Below, piece after piece: positions 2,293-18,114 of a stretch of 35,778 nt of DNA; within the stretch, counting starts at the first letter, position 1; the number at the start of each line of letters is the position of its first letter. The notes beneath the pieces are model-generated. The model was not told where the DNA came from and did not search any database. It worked only from the letters and a program-made list of their open reading frames with translations. The DNA comes from Actinomycetota bacterium (GTDB taxonomy: Bacteria > Actinomycetota > Actinomycetes > UBA12327), in assembly GCA_026392555.1 (NCBI GenBank), contig JAPLBW010000028.1:1-35778 (forward strand), written 5' to 3'. A program made the position numbers and the translations under genes.

Positions 2293-3120
2293 CTAGTGAC
2301 TCATGACGGGCTCGGTGCGAGCCGGCACCTTGAAGTCAGCTGGGACTTCGTAAACAACCTCGTTGGTCTCAAGTTGTGCACGCAGTAGTTCGGATTGGCG
2401 ATCGCCAACCATGGGGCCAATGAGATCCCAGACGGGGTCAACCTCACGGTTGAAGATCAATCCTCGGTTGGCCGCATCGCGGGCTACAAGGTCAGTGTCC
2501 TGGATGGAGTCCAGAACGTTTTGAGGCAGACCTTCATCTACGAGCTGGAACCACCAGTCAAGATAAGCCTGAACGTTGACATCCATCGCTGGGTAGTTGT
2601 CGGCGTGAACGCGGTAGGCCAACATCCACTGCGACATGATCGACCGTTGGCGTGGAGTCAGCTGAGCCTCGGACAAGCCTGGATGCGATTTGCCGGCCGC
2701 GTAGGTGTCGTTTAAGTGGCCAAACACGTAGTCCATGTAGGTCCGGTGCGAACCAAGATCAACACGTGGGAGCAGATCCAAGTGCATCGCGTAGAACGGG
2801 GCGCTAAAGACCGAGTCAAAGGTCCAGTGTGGAATGGGTGATTCACCATCGGTAAATGCAAAGACCATATGACTGTCAAGCAGGAAGGGAGCAGGGGCAC
2901 CTGGCGGGTGAATCTCGTTGGTGATGGCGTGGTAGACGACCTTCTTCACCAAGTCATCACCAACCAAAACCCGAGTCATGCCCAGATCCTTGTCTCCAGC
3001 AGCGTTGGTAATGGTGTGGAATGGCCCACCATCTGCGCTGTGAAGTTCTTTCATCCCAAGGCGTGCCTTGATCTGTTCTAGCTTGTCGACATTGAGCTTT
3101 TGGGCCCAGCGTTCTGTCAT
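2293..3120 (-). CDS. ferredoxin-dependent bilin reductase (PcyA-like) superfamily protein, subfamily 1 (paralog of 8316..9074)
   Basis: 275 aa with RBS AAGGAA. The core LLDSHMVFAF..PIPHWTFDSV..MHLDLLPRVDL resembles PcyA LDILHCVMFP..LPLFGCDIV..ADLSP, including His and Asp at near-identical spacing. The C-terminal ARDAANRGLIFNREVDPVW..G..ELLRAQL resembles the FDBR tail. It starts 31 bp downstream of the Rieske oxygenase gene. Confidence 0.6.
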   Translation of the reverse strand: MTERWAQKLNVDKLEQIKARLGMKELHSADGGPFHTITNAAGDKDLGMTRVLVGDDLVKKVVYHAITNEIHPPGAPAPFLLDSHMVFAFTDGESPIPHWTFDSVFSAPFYAMHLDLLPRVDLGSHRTYMDYVFGHLNDTYAAGKSHPGLSEAQLTPRQRSIMSQWMLAYRVHADNYPAMDVNVQAYLDWWFQLVDEGLPQNVLDSIQDTDLVARDAANRGLIFNREVDPVWDLIGPMVGDRQSELLRAQLETNEVVYEVPADFKVPARTEPVMSH

Positions 3121-3151
3121 GTGGATTCCTTTTCTTTAGAGCAGAAGGGAC

Positions 3152-4363
3152 TTAGGACTCTTCGATTTCGTAGGCCGTCTGTCCGCCAGCGTTAGTAGCG
3201 GTTTCTACCTTGGATCCACCCAAGATGGCCCTCGAACTGACCTCCTTGTGCACCCAAGCATTCGCAAGTTCTGGATTGTTCTTGCGGGCTGGTGAAGGAA
3301 TAACTACTGCGACGTCGCGCGGTCCATCGCCAACGATCTGGTGCATGTCAATGCCCCAGCCCTGGTCCAGGAGTTCGTTGCGACGACGACGGTAGGTCGT
3401 TTGCAGGATGTCTGAGCGAATGTGCAGTTCATCCGAGAGCTGGTACGGCAAGATTTCCGGACGTTGCTTCTTGAGCACGCTGTCATCCTGCTTGAAGATG
3501 TCTTGGATGCGCTTGTGGGTGTCCTTGTCGGCCCATTCAGCCTTGATGAAGTCGCGCAGGCCGATGTACATCGAGCGCGTGTGGTTCTCGTCCACGGGGA
3601 CGTGGGCATCGATGAGCACCATGTTGCCGATCGGCAGGGGAACGTACAAAACGTTGATGTTAGGCAAGAAGTAACCGGCCTTGACGTGAGTAAGGACGGG
3701 TCCGTCGCCGACTTCCTTCTTGTACTTGAACTTGAACAACTTGCCCCACAGGCCACCCAAGTTCTTCGGCGGAGCCTTCAGCGGGATGGTGGAAAGACCT
3801 GACCAGGGGGTGGTCGTGACGTCAAAGTCGGGGACCGAGGGGTCCTTGATGTTTCCGAATCGACTGCCGTGGACGAACGCTGCGTGGGAGCCGTCCATGC
3901 CGTTTTCCAGGGCGCGCTCGTAGTTCACCTTCCAGTAGTAACTACCTTCAACGCGCTTGAACTGCGGGTCGTCAAGTTCGGGGATGTCGGGGATGGGGGG
4001 GCGTTCTTCTTCGGGAAGGTCACCCAGGAAGGTCCACACATAGCCGTACTTCTCAATGACGGGGTAGGAGTCAACGCGGGCTTTGGTAGGAATGTTGCGC
4101 TGTGGCTGAGCCGGAATTTTGGTGCACTGACCGTCGCCGCCGTACTGCCAACCGTGGTAAGGACACACGATGGAATCTTTGTCATCGGTCAACCAGCCTT
4201 CTGACAAGGGGCCACCGCGGTGGACACACAGGTCGCTTAAGCAATTGACTTGGCCCTTGGAGTCCCGGAACAACACGAAGTACTGTCCCAATGCCTGCAG
4301 CGACAAGGGGCGGTCAACAACGTTGGAGCTGAATTCAACGGGCCACCATAGATTCTTAAGCAC
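3152..4363 (-). CDS. Rieske [2Fe-2S] non-haem iron oxygenase, alpha-subunit type (PaO/Tic55/KshA-like class)
   Basis: 403 aa with a GTG start after AAGGACGG. The Rieske motif is CVHRGGPLSEGWL-x11-CPYHGWQYGGDGQCTKIP. The mononuclear-iron motif is ENGMDGSHAAFVH (E-N-x2-D-x-S-H-x2-F-x-H). Confidence 0.9.
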   Translation of the reverse strand: MLKNLWWPVEFSSNVVDRPLSLQALGQYFVLFRDSKGQVNCLSDLCVHRGGPLSEGWLTDDKDSIVCPYHGWQYGGDGQCTKIPAQPQRNIPTKARVDSYPVIEKYGYVWTFLGDLPEEERPPIPDIPELDDPQFKRVEGSYYWKVNYERALENGMDGSHAAFVHGSRFGNIKDPSVPDFDVTTTPWSGLSTIPLKAPPKNLGGLWGKLFKFKYKKEVGDGPVLTHVKAGYFLPNINVLYVPLPIGNMVLIDAHVPVDENHTRSMYIGLRDFIKAEWADKDTHKRIQDIFKQDDSVLKKQRPEILPYQLSDELHIRSDILQTTYRRRRNELLDQGWGIDMHQIVGDGPRDVAVVIPSPARKNNPELANAWVHKEVSSRAILGGSKVETATNAGGQTAYEIEES

Positions 4364-4552
4364 AGTTTCCGTCCTTCATCACGACAGCCGACAGTGGGAT
4401 TGCTTGCCGGCTATTTGGTTGTGGAACTCACAGGGGAGTTCCGTTGGATCCCCCAGAATTTCCGTTCTCCCATAGTACGGCGGTCCGCTCCCACGCGCGA
4501 CCCCGATAGGTCAGGTCTGGCCACGCCTAGGACCAAAGTCCCATGGCTAGTC

Positions 4553-16655: not shown

Positions 16656-17356
16656 TGGCCTTGACTGACTGCGTTACCTATCCGTTGGGCTTAGCGGCCG
16701 AAGATATCGTGCCGATTGTTCTCGCAGGTGTGGGTTATTGGTACCTATCCAAGCGCGTGCTCAACGATTTTGATGGGTCGCCAGCTGTTGCCCTAGCCAT
16801 GCGCATCGCCGCTGTGCTTTTGGTCGTGTGTTCGTTCTTGGCCGGACCGGTGCGAAAGATCCTGGCCAACGTTGCTGCAGTACCCATTTGCGCGCCGGAT
16901 TTCGATGTCCCCTATTCACAATTCCAGATTCCCTTTGTCGCTGCGCTGGCCCCAGGGTTTGCGATCTTGACTTGGGGTGTGATCTGCACGCTCAAGGGCC
17001 GCAAGGTGGCCTTCTGGCCGGCCAGCGTGCTGTTAGCGCTCGGCGTCGTGGCTGCGGTTGCCGTGGGTGAGCGGACGATCCTGTTTGCAGTAGGTGGGCT
17101 CTGGGCCACGGCCCTGGCCGTTTCGGCCGGCATCCTTGCCGCTCGCCAACGTGATTTTGTGACAACGGGACTCTTTGCCCTCTACGCCTTGGGTACTTTG
17201 GCCCTACCGCCGATCAGCTCTAAAGGGAATGTTTCTGATGTAAATGTTCAGTGGTTGGCGCAAGGGATTAATACCGCCACACAAGGGCTGTTCCTTTATT
17301 CCTGCTATCGACTATTTACACGTTTCCAACGCCAGTCCACGAACACCATCGTCTAG
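16655..17356 (+). CDS. polytopic membrane protein of unknown function
   Basis: 233 aa. Its GTG start overlaps the upstream TAG by 1 nt. About 6-7 hydrophobic segments are visible. Confidence 0.55.
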   Translation: MALTDCVTYPLGLAAEDIVPIVLAGVGYWYLSKRVLNDFDGSPAVALAMRIAAVLLVVCSFLAGPVRKILANVAAVPICAPDFDVPYSQFQIPFVAALAPGFAILTWGVICTLKGRKVAFWPASVLLALGVVAAVAVGERTILFAVGGLWATALAVSAGILAARQRDFVTTGLFALYALGTLALPPISSKGNVSDVNVQWLAQGINTATQGLFLYSCYRLFTRFQRQSTNTIV

Positions 17357-17367
17357 GGAGAACACAC

Positions 17368-18114
17368 ATGGGTGATCAACTCGCTTTCCGCAAGAAGTTT
17401 GGTGTCTTGGCACCGAGTACGAACTCCATCGTCGAGCCGGACTTCAATCGCATGGGTGTTCCCGGCGTTACGCCACTGTTTAGTCGCATTTACATTTATG
17501 ACCAAGACCTGTCAACTGAAGCGCAGATGGAGAAGTTGCGCGTACAGCTCGATGAGTCCTTGGACTACGCCATTGATCTGGTCCGCACGGCCGAAGTTGA
17601 TTACATGGTCATGGGCATGTCGGCCGAGACCTTCTGGGGTGGTGTTGCGGGCAATGACTACTTCAAGGCACGCGTCAAAGAACGTTCGGGCGGGCTTGAT
17701 GTCGCCACCGGTGCGGAAGGGTGTCAAAAGGTCCTCAACAGTTACAACGTCAAGTCCATCTCTGTTGTCACGCCGTATCAAGAGAACGGTGACCGAGAGG
17801 TCATCAATTACTTTGAGGAGATTGGCTTCGAGGTCAAGAAGTTGATCGGCCTCAAGCGTCCAACCGCGGTTTCTATTGCGCACACCACGGAAGACGAACT
17901 TCGCGATGCCCTCATTGAACTCAATGAGAGCGGCGCCGAAGCCATCGTCCAGGTGGGCACGAACTTGTCCATGGTCCGCCTAGCCGCTGAGGCCGAGCGC
18001 TGGTTCCACAAGCCTGTTGTGGCTATTAATGCTGCGACGTGGTGGATGGCCCTGCGTGAGAATGGCATCAACGACAAGCTCTACGGCTTTGGCCGCATGT
18101 TTGAGGACTTCTAA
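17368..18114 (+). CDS. Asp/Glu/hydantoin racemase superfamily protein, maleate cis-trans isomerase / arylmalonate decarboxylase-like
   Basis: 248 aa with RBS AGGGAGA. FGVLAPSTNSIVEPDF at the N-terminus, SISVVTPY, and the second-half VQVGTNLS are typical of maleate isomerase-type proteins. Confidence 0.7.
   Translation: MGDQLAFRKKFGVLAPSTNSIVEPDFNRMGVPGVTPLFSRIYIYDQDLSTEAQMEKLRVQLDESLDYAIDLVRTAEVDYMVMGMSAETFWGGVAGNDYFKARVKERSGGLDVATGAEGCQKVLNSYNVKSISVVTPYQENGDREVINYFEEIGFEVKKLIGLKRPTAVSIAHTTEDELRDALIELNESGAEAIVQVGTNLSMVRLAAEAERWFHKPVVAINAATWWMALRENGINDKLYGFGRMFEDF

What the first reader, a model, noticed from the sequence alone, without database searches (positions are those of the whole stretch)
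2293..18114. Candidate bacterial chlorophyll/tetrapyrrole breakdown cluster built from homologues of the plant PAO/phyllobilin pathway
**Components.** Within about 16 kb I see homologues of several enzyme families that together define chlorophyll breakdown in plants:
- a NOL/NYC1-like SDR (15822-16655);
- a chlorophyllase-like GHSxGG alpha/beta hydrolase (12505-13500);
- a PaO/Tic55-type Rieske oxygenase (3152-4363);
- two RCCR-like proteins (7266-8078, 11662-12486);
- two PcyA-like FDBR-fold proteins (2293-3120, 8316-9074).

They are interleaved with an ACAD-fold flavoprotein, an NTF2-like protein, MFS and TauE transporters and three unknown proteins.

**Gene organisation.** Genes are tightly packed (spacers of 18-31 bp, ATGA and 1-nt overlaps), which indicates co-expression.

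**Why it matters.** To my knowledge no PAO/RCCR-type macrocycle-opening pathway has been established in a heterotrophic bacterium. An actinobacterium feeding on phytoplankton-derived chlorophyll, pheophorbide or bilins would be new biology.

**Gaps.**
- No SGR-type Mg-dechelatase is recognisable.
- No ferredoxin or reductase partner for the Rieske and FDBR enzymes is present.
- No transcription factor is encoded.

The substrate could equally be a bilin, bacteriochlorophyll or haem derivative.
Basis: partly seen in the sequence, partly recalled or inferred. Interest (0 to 1): 0.9.

Follow-up and report, generated by a model that had tools for sequence, protein, structure and literature searches.

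The report
Bacterial RCCR-like tetrapyrrole breakdown gene cluster
A small-genome freshwater actinobacterium carries a conserved but uncharacterised gene cluster built around relatives of the plant enzyme that reduces opened chlorophyll; it probably lets bacteria import and dismantle chlorophyll- or bilin-type pigments, but the substrate is unproven and several "plant pathway" gene assignments do not hold.

Summary
The four FDBR/RCCR-fold genes are real. Two pass Pfam's RCC_reductase cut-off. The other two form a divergent sister family; the modelled one (2293-3120) matches plant RCCR and HY2 best, not PcyA.

The other plant-pathway assignments are not supported:
- The Rieske oxygenase is intact but has a VanA_C-type catalytic domain and no PaO domain.
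- The hydrolase shares only a GHSGGG nucleophile motif with chlorophyllase.
- The SDR is generic.

A 381-aa open frame on the minus strand opposite one of them is a shadow ORF, not a gene.

The gene set is strongly co-conserved. The common order is ACAD-like, RCCR-like, hydrolase, Rieske, type A, double barrel, SDR and Amdase-like, with a large nitrilase-family hydrolase in 70 of 82 loci. It occurs across Actinomycetota, a gammaproteobacterium (with a TonB receptor), a deltaproteobacterium and a cyanobacterium, and RCCR-like genes occur in all 7 other genomes of the window's own family.

Best reading (about 0.5): a catabolic operon for an imported tetrapyrrole-type pigment. Chlorophyll specificity is not shown.

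A 2026 preprint already proposes prokaryotic chlorophyll a degradation, with Actinomycetota the largest group. The idea is therefore not new, but the conserved operon and its extra members are.

The parts
277..558 (-). Dabb-like small alpha+beta barrel protein
   Evidence: 51% identical to the Dabb (PF07876) gene of the Dactylosporangium cluster. A homologue lies in 35 of 82 loci.
562..1203 (-). Isochorismatase-family amidohydrolase
   Evidence: PF00857 E 5e-33. The nearest NCBIfam models are BiuH and RutB amidohydrolases, both below cut-off. Found next to the cluster in only 4 loci.
1313..2221 (+). HMG-CoA-lyase-like C-C lyase
   Evidence: PF00682 E 7e-46 and NF004283 at 288 bits, above its cut-off of 246. 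Present in 24 loci, mainly Acidimicrobiia.
2293..3120 (-). FDBR/RCCR-fold protein, type A copy 1
   Evidence: No Pfam hit. The model has pLDDT 91.6; the top PDB hits are A. thaliana RCCR (E 1e-9, TM 0.65-0.68), then HY2, PebB and PcyA.
3152..4363 (-). Alpha3-type Rieske non-haem-iron monooxygenase
   Evidence: Rieske E 1e-22 and VanA_C E 4e-20, with no PaO hit. The C46xH...C67xxH and D157xxH160x4H165 motifs are intact. In 75 of 85 loci.
4588..5871 (-). ACAD-fold flavoprotein, possibly the oxygenase part of a two-component flavin monooxygenase
   Evidence: Acyl-CoA_dh N, M and C domains. The best NCBIfam matches are acyl-CoA dehydrogenase-type models (FadE16 and others); the monooxygenase models SfnB, HsaA and DszC match more weakly; all are below cut-off. 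In other clusters it sits next to a flavin-reductase fusion. In 36 loci.
6038..6487 (+). Weak SnoaL/NTF2-like protein (specific to this lineage)
   Evidence: SnoaL_2 E 0.005, below cut-off. Present only in close relatives.
6561..7238 (-). Unknown 225-aa protein (specific to this lineage)
   Evidence: No family hit. Homologues occur only in 5 close loci.
7266..8078 (-). RCCR-like reductase, type B copy 1 (the canonical orthologue)
   Evidence: PF06405 at 47.8 bits. The family profile hits AtRCCR 3agb at E 6e-20. It is the best match for the type B gene of nearly all loci.
8316..9074 (+). FDBR/RCCR-fold protein, type A copy 2 (the canonical orthologue)
   Evidence: 37.5% identical to 2293-3120. 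It is the best match for the type A gene of 73 loci. A heterodimer with 7266-8078 is predicted.
9099..10706 (+). MFS transporter
   Evidence: MFS_1 E 4e-58 and 11 hydrophobic segments.
10715..11488 (+). TauE/SafE-family membrane protein
   Evidence: PF01925 E 1e-29.
11662..12486 (+). RCCR-like reductase, type B copy 2
   Evidence: PF06405 at 27.1 bits and PF05996 at 29.3 bits. 39% identical to copy 1.
12505..13500 (+). Alpha/beta hydrolase with a GGHSGGG nucleophile motif
   Evidence: Abhydrolase_6 E 1e-6; Chlorophyllase only 15.7 bits against a cut-off of 26. No significant PDB relative. In 61 loci.
13712..14707 (+). Double-lipocalin protein U, copy 1 (the minus-strand ORF 13664-14809 is a shadow)
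   Evidence: 51% identical to 14848-15825. 'Hits' of the minus-strand ORF in other loci fall on the opposite strand of their U genes.
14848..15825 (+). Double-lipocalin protein U, copy 2
   Evidence: The model has pLDDT 89.7 and shows two beta-barrels. It matches DUF3598 2o62 (Z 19.8) and BFA1 (Z 19.0); the C-terminal barrel resembles nitrobindin (Z 13) and CpeS (Z 11). In 72 loci.
15822..16655 (+). Classical short-chain dehydrogenase/reductase
   Evidence: adh_short E 4e-40. Only generic FabG-like matches. In 57 loci.
16655..17356 (+). Small integral membrane protein
   Evidence: At least 4 hydrophobic segments. Its nearest Atlas neighbours include DUF6962 clusters. In 16 loci.
17368..18114 (+). 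Amdase-like protein (arylmalonate decarboxylase family)
   Evidence: PF17645 E 2e-12; EutA and arylmalonate decarboxylase models, below cut-off. In 46 loci, at 55-65% identity.
18121..26261 (-). ABC uptake system of the branched-chain-amino-acid type, with two large lipoprotein binding proteins
   Evidence: Peripla_BP_6 (twice), BPD_transp_2 and ABC_tran; lipoprotein-type N-terminus on 18121-19545. A homologous permease-ATPase flanks the cluster in Acidimicrobiia, and a binding-protein homologue lies in L087.

Best explanation
The window holds a rearranged, partly duplicated copy of a conserved catabolic operon for an imported tetrapyrrole-type pigment. The substrate could be an open-chain bilin, a phyllobilin or RCC-like chlorophyll catabolite, or a chlorophyll derivative opened in the cell.

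**Proposed course (inferred unless marked shown)**
1. Uptake by the ABC system and MFS carrier. In Gram-negative carriers, a TonB-dependent receptor plus an MFS carrier do this.
2. Binding or handling by the double-lipocalin protein U.
3. Reduction of specific double bonds by an RCCR-like pair, type A with type B, probably as a pseudo-symmetric heterodimer. Electrons would come from a general ferredoxin.
4. Oxygenation or cleavage by the Rieske monooxygenase and by flavin monooxygenases.
5. Oxidation of the resulting alcohols and aldehydes by the SDR and aldehyde dehydrogenases.
6. Hydrolysis of esters and amides by the alpha/beta hydrolase, the ~550-aa nitrilase-family hydrolase and the isochorismatase-type amidase, releasing ammonium.
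7. Conversion of the resulting branched dicarboxylic acids to central metabolites by the Amdase-like enzyme and the HMG-CoA-lyase-like and methylisocitrate-lyase-like enzymes.

**Shown here:** the folds and families, the synteny, the co-distribution and the predicted A/B interface.

**Inferred:** the substrate and every reaction step.
For: **Fold and family**
- Four FDBR/RCCR-fold genes lie in the cluster. The type B profile hits plant RCCR at E 6e-20, against 5e-9 for the best FDBR.
- By my own knowledge, every characterised member of this fold (FDBRs, RCCR, CPOX) acts on tetrapyrroles.
- The Asp on the C-terminal helix that aligns with AtRCCR Asp291 is invariant in type B (D235) and type A (D228). 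A 'VPH' histidine is invariant in type A and nearly invariant (90% or more) in type B.
- U is a two-barrel protein of the DUF3598/BFA1 type. Its C-terminal barrel resembles the haem-binding nitrobindins and the bilin lyases CpeS and CpeT.

**Conservation**
- Other families lie within 10 kb of the RCCR-like gene as follows, out of 85 loci: type A 76, Rieske 75, U 72, hydrolase 61, SDR 57, Amdase-like 46, ACAD-like 36.
- The nitrilase-family hydrolase is present in 70 of 82 loci.
- The commonest order is ACAD-like, type B, hydrolase, Rieske, type A, U, SDR, (membrane protein), Amdase-like.
- Among 41 related genomes, U occurs in 7 of the 9 that have RCCR-like genes and in none of the 32 without.
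- All 7 other genomes of the window's family (1.0-2.5 Mb) keep 2-4 RCCR-like matches. Only 2 of 400 other sampled Actinomycetota species have one.

**Catabolic context**
- Other carriers add GntR, IclR or TetR regulators, a flavin reductase, an FAD monooxygenase, two aldehyde dehydrogenases and a methylisocitrate-lyase-like enzyme. Acidimicrobiales also add CoA transferases, HpcH/HpaI and PrpD-like genes.
- The Zhongshania version carries a TonB-dependent receptor. By my own knowledge this is typical of large substrates such as haem and B12.
- The window's own genome holds the remaining genes on other contigs.

**Binding**
- The type B1 + type A2 complex scores ipSAE 0.79 against a best control of 0.00. 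The runs agree in at least 93% of contacts and the partner's pLDDT is 90. In the tool's calibration the mark was reached by 58 of 80 solved complexes and 2 of 110 mismatched pairs; these counts hold only roughly here because my own alignments were used.

**Habitat**
- The stretch is held by freshwater lake metagenomes; apart from the runs that may be its own source, the main independent holder is one further study. Algal and cyanobacterial pigments are available there (my own knowledge).
Against: - No substrate evidence of any kind exists for this cluster.
- The Rieske enzyme, hydrolase and SDR have no specific relation to PAO, chlorophyllase or NOL.
- AtRCCR's catalytic Glu154 appears to align with a conserved Ala in type B (the numbering offset is inferred).
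- No ferredoxin, haem oxygenase or Mg-dechelatase is linked to the cluster.
- Without the FDBR-fold genes, the accessory enzymes would look like an ordinary N-heterocycle or aromatic degradation set.
- In one cyanobacterial MAG (L049), the Rieske, type A and type B genes lie beside a TPP enzyme and a Leu/Phe-dehydrogenase-type gene that may belong to secondary metabolism.
- Stand-alone type A and type B paralogues sit among housekeeping genes, so the fold has other roles in these organisms.
- The heterodimer pass may only echo the solved RCCR homodimer.
Confidence: 0.5

Rival explanations
1. One reading: a plant-like PAO/phyllobilin pathway acting on chlorophyll itself. The hydrolase would remove phytol, the SDR would act like chlorophyll b reductase, the Rieske enzyme would open pheophorbide a as PAO does, and the RCCR-like proteins would reduce the resulting RCC.
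For: - The type B proteins are nearer to plant RCCR than to any FDBR.
- A Rieske oxygenase is the near-constant neighbour of the RCCR homologue (75 of 85 loci), echoing the plant PAO-RCCR couple.
- The preprint 10.64898/2026.03.19.712979 reports that all the best structural homologues of the chlorophyll catabolic enzymes in Shewanella acanthi lie within ~11 kb. It also reports that a mutant lacking its PPH and CLH homologues converts chlorophyll a more slowly.
- The Zhongshania cluster is of similar size and make-up.
Against: - No PaO domain: the window's Rieske enzyme is 29-32% identical to cyanobacterial PaO-domain proteins in the Rieske domain only, and about as close to KshA.
- Chlorophyllase scores below its cut-off, on the nucleophile elbow only. 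The SDR is generic. No SGR was found.
- The most conserved partners (U, the nitrilase-family hydrolase, Amdase-like) have no plant counterpart.
- Homology between this cluster and the S. acanthi region could not be checked here, and the preprint shows no macrocycle opening.
Confidence: 0.15
2. A catabolic cluster for a substrate that is not a tetrapyrrole, such as an N-heterocyclic or aromatic compound. The FDBR-fold pair would have been recruited for a different ligand.
For: - The nearest solved Rieske relatives act on saxitoxin, methylxanthines, phthalate, dicamba, steroids and carbazole.
- The set also has an ACAD-like protein plus flavin reductase, an FAD monooxygenase of the aromatic hydroxylase type, amidases, aldehyde dehydrogenases and lyases.
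- In the cyanobacterial MAG L049, the Rieske, type A and type B genes lie beside a TPP enzyme, an ELFV dehydrogenase, an HPPD-like enzyme and a tryptophanase-like gene.
- AtRCCR's Glu154 is not conserved.
Against: - No FDBR/RCCR/CPOX-fold protein is known to act on anything but tetrapyrroles (my own knowledge).
- Two different families of that fold are kept together in most loci.
- The barrel protein U resembles haem- and bilin-binding barrels.
- A TonB-dependent receptor in the Gram-negative version suggests a large substrate.
Confidence: 0.27
3. A biosynthetic or pigment-modifying cluster that makes a reduced bilin-type cofactor or chromophore, as the pre-PcyA clusters of heterotrophic bacteria do.
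For: - FDBR-fold proteins of heterotrophs are active bilin-forming reductases (PMC10151467).
- The cluster includes barrel proteins related to bilin lyases.
Against: - No haem oxygenase, globin, phytochrome or other bilin acceptor was seen in the loci examined.
- The cluster is surrounded by importers, amidases, aldehyde dehydrogenases, lyases and catabolic-type regulators.
- Type B groups with RCCR, not with the PcyA branch.
Confidence: 0.05

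Closest known systems
Plant red chlorophyll catabolite reductase (RCCR, PF06405) and its coupling to pheophorbide a oxygenase
   Same: - The type B proteins pass the RCC_reductase cut-off and align over nearly their full length with AtRCCR.
- Type A shares the fold.
- The Asp aligned with AtRCCR Asp291 is invariant.
- A Rieske oxygenase is the constant genomic partner.
   Different: - AtRCCR Glu154 appears replaced by Ala, and a nearly invariant His sits four residues upstream (inferred).
- Two divergent families are predicted to pair as a heterodimer, rather than one protein forming a homodimer.
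- The partner oxygenase lacks the PaO domain.
- The context is import and full catabolism, not detoxification inside a plastid.
Prokaryotic 'SH-RCCR-type' chlorophyll a degradation gene set (Aliyu et al. 2026, bioRxiv 10.64898/2026.03.19.712979)
   Same: - The same idea and the same protein classes: structural homologues of PAO, RCCR and CLH/PPH.
- Actinomycetota are the largest group of carriers, the trait is rare (~0.3-0.7% of genomes or proteins), and no SGR co-occurs with RCCR (compare).
- In S. acanthi the hits lie within ~11 kb.
   Different: - The preprint scores genome-wide co-presence of four plant-defined enzymes. Its text does not mention an operon, synteny or Rieske.
- It does not include the double-lipocalin, nitrilase-family, Amdase-like, type A or ACAD-like members found here.
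- Its experiment concerns the phytol-hydrolase homologues only.
- Whether its S. acanthi region is homologous to this operon was not testable here.
Pre-PcyA FDBR gene clusters of heterotrophic bacteria (Rockwell, Martin and Lagarias 2023, PMC10151467)
   Same: - FDBR-superfamily proteins in non-photosynthetic bacteria, encoded in conserved clusters.
- RCCR-related bacterial sequences served as the outgroup in that study.
   Different: - Those clusters encode bilin-binding globins, V4R and Fe-S proteins, and make phytobilins from biliverdin.
- This one has none of those partners, lies on the RCCR side of the superfamily, and sits among catabolic enzymes and importers.
Cyanobacterial RCCR-like genes (Thomas et al. 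2009, PMC2716323)
   Same: - RCCR-family genes in bacteria have been known since 2009, including two neighbouring copies in Nostoc punctiforme.
- A cyanobacterial MAG here has Rieske, type A and type B genes in a row.
   Different: - The 2009 report treated them as an oddity of plant-symbiotic cyanobacteria. It described no operon partners and no heterotrophic carriers.
Maleamate/maleate branch of aerobic nicotinate degradation (NicD, NicF, NicE), recalled from my own knowledge
   Same: - It combines an alpha/beta-hydrolase deformylase, an isochorismatase-family amidase and an Asp/Glu-racemase-superfamily isomerase.
- This resembles the hydrolase, isochorismatase and Amdase-like trio here.
- It would suit maleimide- or maleamate-type fragments of pyrrole rings.
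   Different: - No sequence-level equivalence was shown: all NCBIfam scores are far below cut-off.
- This is an analogy for the downstream steps only.

Membership tests
RCC reductase family (PF06405) | Profile score above the curated cut-off (24.9 bits) | tested here: met
   - 7266-8078 scores 47.8 bits and 11662-12486 scores 27.1 bits.
- Type A copies: no hit for the window's two. 9 of 25 family members hit weakly, best E 3.6e-5.
RCC reductase family (PF06405) | FDBR-type alpha/beta/alpha sandwich fold, closest to solved RCCR | tested here: met
   - The type A model's top hits are 3agb and 2zxk (E 1e-9, TM 0.65-0.68) and rice RCCR1 (TM 0.72).
- Type B was tested by profile only: 3agb at E 6e-20 over residues 29-255.
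RCC reductase family (PF06405) | Catalytic Glu154 and Asp291 of A. thaliana RCCR (residue roles recalled from the structural papers) | tested here: inconclusive
   - In the HMMER alignment, the Asp291 position matches the invariant D235 of the 'RDPAN' motif. Glu154 matches the nearly invariant A112.
- The numbering offset (+43) is inferred from the chain length.
RCC reductase family (PF06405) | Ferredoxin-dependent reduction of RCC to pFCC | not testable with these tools
   This needs an enzyme assay.
Ferredoxin-dependent bilin reductases (PF05996; 'PcyA-like') | Profile score above the curated cut-off (31 bits) | tested here: not met
   - Best is 29.3 bits for 11662-12486. The two 'PcyA-like' genes have no hit.
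- PcyA structures rank below RCCR, HY2 and PebB for the type A model.
PAO/Tic55/PTC52 (LLS1-related) Rieske oxygenases | Rieske 2Fe-2S motif and mononuclear iron motif | tested here: met
   C46xH48...C67xxH70 and E153...D157xxH160x4H165. These motifs are shared by all Rieske oxygenases.
PAO/Tic55/PTC52 (LLS1-related) Rieske oxygenases | PaO C-terminal domain (PF08417) | tested here: not met
   - No hit at E <= 0.1 in the protein, nor at E <= 1 in the whole genome. VanA_C scores 73 bits instead.
- Similarity to two Scytonema PaO-domain proteins is confined to the Rieske domain (29-32% identity), no closer than to KshA.
PAO/Tic55/PTC52 (LLS1-related) Rieske oxygenases | C-terminal CxxC motif and membrane anchor (recalled from the literature) | tested here: not met
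   The protein has no Cys after residue 67 and no hydrophobic segment.
Chlorophyllase (PF07224) | Profile score above the cut-off (26 bits) | tested here: not met
   15.7 bits, covering residues 146-167 only. No chlorophyllase appears among the PDB matches. Only the GGHSGGG elbow is shared.
NYC1/NOL chlorophyll b reductases | Placement within the NYC1/NOL clade of SDRs | not tested
   - No plant reference sequences were available.
- Pfam, NCBIfam and PDB give only generic classical-SDR matches (FabG, glucose 1-dehydrogenase), all below family cut-offs.
DUF3598/BFA1 double beta-barrel proteins | Two tandem lipocalin-like barrels superposable over the full length | tested here: met
   - 2o62: Z 19.8, 248 residues aligned, rmsd 4.0. 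5yvf: Z 19.0, 268 residues aligned. Foldseek E 2e-8.
- There is no Pfam sequence hit, so this is membership by fold only.
Prokaryotic 'SH-RCCR-type' chlorophyll a degradation set (2026 preprint) | Co-presence of structural homologues of PAO, RCCR and CLH/PPH, without SGR | tested here: inconclusive
   A Rieske oxygenase, RCCR-like proteins and an alpha/beta hydrolase are present and SGR is absent. The preprint's own HMMs and thresholds were not available, so its criteria could not be applied.

The most novel reading that the evidence does not exclude
This operon encodes a complete bacterial route that takes up open-chain tetrapyrroles shed by phototrophs (RCC-type catabolites, phyllobilins or phycobilins) and mineralises them to central metabolites and ammonium. 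The route would start with a heterodimeric RCCR-like reductase working with a Rieske oxygenase and a new double-lipocalin protein. The bacterial type B family could also be the source from which streptophyte plants acquired RCCR.
Probability: 0.3. Interest if true: 0.9.

Novelty: new variant of a known kind. Interest (0 to 1): 0.68.

Why it matters
**The open question**
- Chlorophyll and bilins are produced and destroyed on a very large scale. The enzymes by which heterotrophic microbes dispose of their breakdown products are essentially unknown. Plants stop at phyllobilins. The one 2026 preprint on prokaryotes rests on fold matches and a mutant lacking two hydrolase homologues.

**What this finding adds**
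- It defines a concrete, testable genetic unit: a syntenic operon kept in soil actinomycetes, sponge-associated Acidimicrobiia, marine Gammaproteobacteria and streamlined lake Actinomycetota.
- That unit has a core of RCCR-like type A and type B proteins, a Rieske oxygenase, a double-lipocalin protein and a nitrilase-type hydrolase.
- Several carriers are cultivable, so the substrate question can be answered directly.
- A whole family of 1.0-2.5 Mb genomes (seven of the eight at 1.7 Mb or less) keeps 2-4 RCCR-like matches. This argues that the function matters ecologically in lakes.

**If the substrate is a tetrapyrrole, it would**
- reveal a new carbon and nitrogen route in the pigment cycle;
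- reveal new chemistry for two FDBR-fold families;
- bear on the puzzling origin of plant RCCR, which is absent from green algae (PMC9306834, PMC2716323).

Tried and rejected
**Gene calls and searches that gave nothing**
- The 381-aa minus-strand ORF 13664-14809 was first treated as a gene. It was rejected as a shadow of the plus-strand U paralogue.
- A sequence-profile search of type A against PDB gave nothing. The fold had to be shown by modelling.
- One Pfam call failed on an off-by-one coordinate error and was repeated.

**Expression**
- No RNA run holds the cluster well.
- Laying four metatranscriptome contig sets gave only 151-201-nt pieces on the ACAD-like gene (0-1 mismatch, two lake runs).
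- It also gave ~95%-identical pieces on 7210-7356 and 12279-12573 (one estuary run).
- This is too little to claim transcription, and DNA carry-over is not excluded.

**Literature**
- Searches for bacterial bilin, maleimide or phyllobilin catabolism and for RCCR-like genes in actinomycetes found no functional study of this operon.

**Link to Shewanella acanthi**
- A search from a gammaproteobacterial homologue listed no Shewanella protein among the best 120 hits. Homology with the preprint's 11-kb region remains unchecked.

**Classification limits**
- Rieske: there is no solved PAO structure, and comparison with only two cyanobacterial PaO-domain proteins and four KshA-type proteins gives equidistance, not a clade.
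- SDR against NOL/NYC1, and plant RCCR against the bacterial type B phylogeny: no plant sequences could be obtained.

**Paralogues elsewhere in the genome**
- The extra RCCR-like (C198) and type A (C130, C241) copies were examined for linked redox partners. They lie among cell-wall, chaperone, DNA-repair and copper/cytochrome-oxidase assembly genes.

**Complex prediction**
- Homodimer controls for the A/B prediction could not be run, because only one job was allowed.

Full report
**What is in the window**

The window is contig C217 of a 1.5-Mb, 86%-complete genome with 57% G+C. Its nearest relatives are freshwater actinobacterial MAGs. The cluster DNA is held by lake metagenomes; apart from the runs that may be its own source, the main independent holder is one further study.

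Pfam, NCBIfam and pairwise comparison give this gene map:

| Coordinates | Strand | Gene |
|---|---|---|
| 277-558 | - | Dabb-like |
| 562-1203 | - | isochorismatase-family amidohydrolase |
| 1313-2221 | + | HMG-CoA-lyase-like |
| 2293-3120 | - | FDBR-fold type A1 |
| 3152-4363 | - | Rieske oxygenase |
| 4588-5871 | - | ACAD-fold flavoprotein |
| 6038-6487 | + | weak SnoaL |
| 6561-7238 | - | unknown |
| 7266-8078 | - | RCCR-like type B1 |
| 8316-9074 | + | type A2 |
| 9099-10706 | + | MFS |
| 10715-11488 | + | TauE |
| 11662-12486 | + | RCCR-like type B2 |
| 12505-13500 | + | alpha/beta hydrolase |
| 13712-14707 | + | U1 |
| 14848-15825 | + | U2 |
| 15822-16655 | + | SDR |
| 16655-17356 | + | membrane protein |
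| 17368-18114 | + | Amdase-like |
| 18121-26261 | - | ABC importer with two large lipoprotein binding proteins |

The longest ORF at 13.7-14.8 kb runs on the minus strand (381 aa), but it is a shadow. Its 'homologues' in other loci lie antisense to their U genes. The plus-strand ORF is 51% identical to the next gene. Three families are therefore duplicated here (A, B and U), while most other genomes have one of each.

**The FDBR/RCCR-fold proteins**

- Both type B proteins pass Pfam's RCC_reductase cut-off.
- A profile of 29 type B relatives hits A. thaliana RCCR at E 6e-20 over almost its full length. The next hits are PebB at 5e-9 and HY2 at 5e-4.
- Type A has no Pfam hit, but its profile matches the type B profile (hhalign 98.8%, E 7e-17).
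- A type A model (pLDDT 91.6) returns RCCR, HY2, PebB, PcyA, PebA and PebS as its first 33 PDB hits, followed by coproporphyrinogen oxidase. Rice RCCR1 is the best Swiss-Prot match, at TM 0.72.

The label 'PcyA-like' was not.

In the alignments, the Asp matching AtRCCR Asp291 is invariant in both families. A 'VPH' histidine is invariant in type A and nearly invariant in type B. AtRCCR Glu154 appears to align with a conserved Ala in type B. The residue roles are recalled from the RCCR structure papers, and the numbering offset is inferred.

Type A and type B co-occur almost one to one. A complex prediction for B1 with A2 passed:
- ipSAE was 0.79 against a best control of 0.00.
- The runs agreed in at least 93% of contacts, and the partner's pLDDT was 90.
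- In the tool's calibration the mark was reached by 58 of 80 solved complexes and 2 of 110 mismatched pairs. These counts hold only roughly here because my own alignments were used.

The interface uses matching segments of the two chains. Since RCCR is known as a homodimer (my own knowledge), the pass may partly reflect that likeness.

**The other 'plant pathway' components**

- Rieske oxygenase. The 2Fe-2S and iron motifs are intact. The catalytic domain is VanA_C (73 bits), and there is no PaO match in the protein or the genome. The nearest solved relatives are SxtT/GxtA, NdmA, phthalate dioxygenase, DdmC, KshA and carbazole dioxygenase, and most of these matches cover only the N-terminal Rieske region. 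It is as far from two cyanobacterial PaO-domain proteins as from Nocardia KshA. It is neither PaO-type nor firmly KshA- or phthalate-type, so it forms a subfamily of its own. In a 7.6-Mb Nocardia genome, the cluster copy is the only clear VanA_C-type gene.
- Hydrolase. It shares only the GGHSGGG elbow with chlorophyllase (15.7 bits against 26).
- SDR. It is a generic classical SDR.

**The double-barrel protein U**

- U was unknown to Pfam.
- Its model (pLDDT 89.7) is two tandem lipocalin-like barrels.
- It superposes over the full length on the cyanobacterial DUF3598 protein 2o62 (Z 19.8) and on plant BFA1 (Z 19.0).
- Its C-terminal barrel resembles nitrobindin and Rv2717c (Z ~13) and the bilin lyases CpeS (Z 11.1) and CpeT (Z 9.7).
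- This fits a tetrapyrrole ligand but does not prove one.

**Conservation**

A scan of one genome per species with the type B alignment gave 169 relatives, of which the best 80 loci were fetched. Counts for families within 10 kb are out of 85 loci, which includes 3 from the window's own genome; the nitrilase-family count is out of 82.

| Family | Loci |
|---|---|
| type A | 76 of 85 |
| Rieske | 75 of 85 |
| U | 72 of 85 |
| hydrolase | 61 of 85 |
| SDR | 57 of 85 |
| Amdase-like | 46 of 85 |
| ACAD-like | 36 of 85 |
| ~550-aa nitrilase-family hydrolase | 70 of 82 |

- The commonest gene order is ACAD-like, type B, hydrolase, Rieske, type A, U, SDR, (membrane protein), Amdase-like. Acidimicrobiia use lyase, B, Rieske, A, U, hydrolase, SDR, ABC transporter.
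- Carriers include Micromonospora, Actinoplanes, Dactylosporangium, Nocardia, Streptomyces, Actinomadura, Aeromicrobium, sponge-associated Acidimicrobiia, a deltaproteobacterium and a cyanobacterium.
- Full neighbourhoods add catabolic-type regulators, a flavin-reductase fusion, an FAD monooxygenase, two aldehyde dehydrogenases and a methylisocitrate-lyase-like enzyme. Acidimicrobiales also add CoA transferases, HpcH/HpaI, PrpD-like and amidohydrolase genes.
- In Zhongshania the same core lacks type A and sits with a TonB-dependent receptor and an MFS carrier.
- The window's genome carries the missing members on other contigs: C163, C24 and C42.
- The trait is rare: 2 of 400 other sampled Actinomycetota species have it. 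Yet it is fixed in the window's own family, in 7 of 7 other genomes of 1.0-2.5 Mb with 2-4 matches each, against 1 of 33 genomes from other families of the class.
- U is found in 7 of the 9 RCCR-positive genomes and in none of the 32 negative ones.

**Interpretation**

The cluster is catabolic. It has importers, cytoplasmic enzymes without signal peptides, amidases, aldehyde dehydrogenases and C-C lyases.

Four features make an imported tetrapyrrole-type pigment the most likely substrate:
- two FDBR-fold families are kept together;
- type B has a specific affinity to RCCR;
- the barrel protein is related to haem and bilin binders;
- the Gram-negative version has a TonB-dependent receptor.

The downstream set (nitrilase-type and isochorismatase-type amidases, Amdase-like enzyme, lyases) would suit maleimide- or maleamate-type fragments of pyrrole rings. 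That step is analogy, not evidence.

Nothing distinguishes a closed chlorophyll derivative from an already open bilin or phyllobilin. A non-tetrapyrrole substrate cannot be excluded. In its favour are the accessory enzymes, the unrelated substrates of the nearest Rieske relatives, the neighbours in the cyanobacterial MAG, and stand-alone paralogues among housekeeping genes.

**Prior knowledge**

- RCCR-like genes in cyanobacteria were noted in 2009 (PMC2716323).
- Bacterial RCCR-related sequences served as the outgroup in the pre-PcyA study (PMC10151467).
- A March 2026 preprint (10.64898/2026.03.19.712979) proposes prokaryotic chlorophyll a degradation from structural homologues of CLH, PPH, PAO, RCCR and SGR. 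It finds Actinomycetota to be 33% of 'RCCR-type' genomes. It also shows slower chlorophyll a conversion in a Shewanella acanthi mutant lacking its PPH and CLH homologues.
- The preprint's text does not mention an operon, synteny or Rieske.

The concept is therefore not new. What is new here:
- the syntenic operon;
- its non-plant core members;
- the type A family;
- the predicted A/B pairing;
- its fixation in a streamlined lake lineage.

**Verdict**

This is a new variant of a recently proposed kind, with a directly testable substrate question.

Noticed in passing
window 13664-14809 (-): The longest ORF in this stretch (381 aa) is an antisense shadow of the real plus-strand gene 13712-14707. 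ORF-length-based calling would misannotate it.
   Followed up: yes
window 26394-31910: A set of cell-surface genes lies just right of the transporter: WxL-interacting (WxLIP_PGBD), neocarzinostatin-like and WxL-domain proteins. By my own knowledge such sets are best known from Firmicutes, so this one is unusual in an actinobacterium.
   Followed up: no
window 19567-21954 (-) and 22391-24622 (-): There are two apparent fusion proteins in the ABC system. One joins a branched-chain-type permease to an ATPase (795 aa). The other joins an MFS-like membrane domain to an ABC ATPase (743 aa). The two binding proteins are also unusually long (474 and 555 aa).
   Followed up: no
own genome contigs C198:2999-3964, C130:5543-6280, C241:14596-15396: Further RCCR-like and type A-like paralogues stand alone among housekeeping genes. 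Their neighbours are FemAB and mannosyltransferases; trigger factor, ClpP and Fpg; and CopC, CopD and CtaG. This hints at a second, non-catabolic role for the fold in these bacteria.
   Followed up: partly
own genome contig C96:7674-8447: A second copy of the cluster-type Rieske oxygenase (45% identical to the Dactylosporangium orthologue) is cut off at a contig end. The genes upstream of it are unrelated.
   Followed up: partly
L049:1829-15143 (Xenococcaceae MAG): The Rieske, type A and type B genes lie in a row. Their neighbours are a TPP enzyme, a Leu/Phe-type dehydrogenase, an HPPD-like enzyme, a 2OG-Fe dioxygenase and a tryptophanase-like lyase. By my own knowledge this set is reminiscent of scytonemin-type secondary metabolism.
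   Followed up: partly
L087:14014-15226: In a related actinobacterial contig, the Rieske gene matches only in pieces across different frames. It is either a pseudogene or carries long-read assembly frameshifts.
   Followed up: no
L006, L008, L072 (record titles): The closest relatives of this freshwater actinobacterial window are deposited as 'MAG: Bifidobacterium breve' or 'uncultured Bifidobacterium sp.'. These are evidently mislabelled.
   Followed up: no
L004:2235-3542, L086:709-1941, own genome C163:12773-13849: A conserved fusion joins an HpaC/HsaB-type flavin reductase to a C-terminal fragment of an HMG-CoA-lyase-like domain. It lies next to the ACAD-like gene.
   Followed up: partly
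window 28719-29417 (-): A second, unrelated alpha/beta hydrolase also gives a sub-threshold Chlorophyllase hit of 15.7 bits. This shows how unspecific that match is.
   Followed up: no
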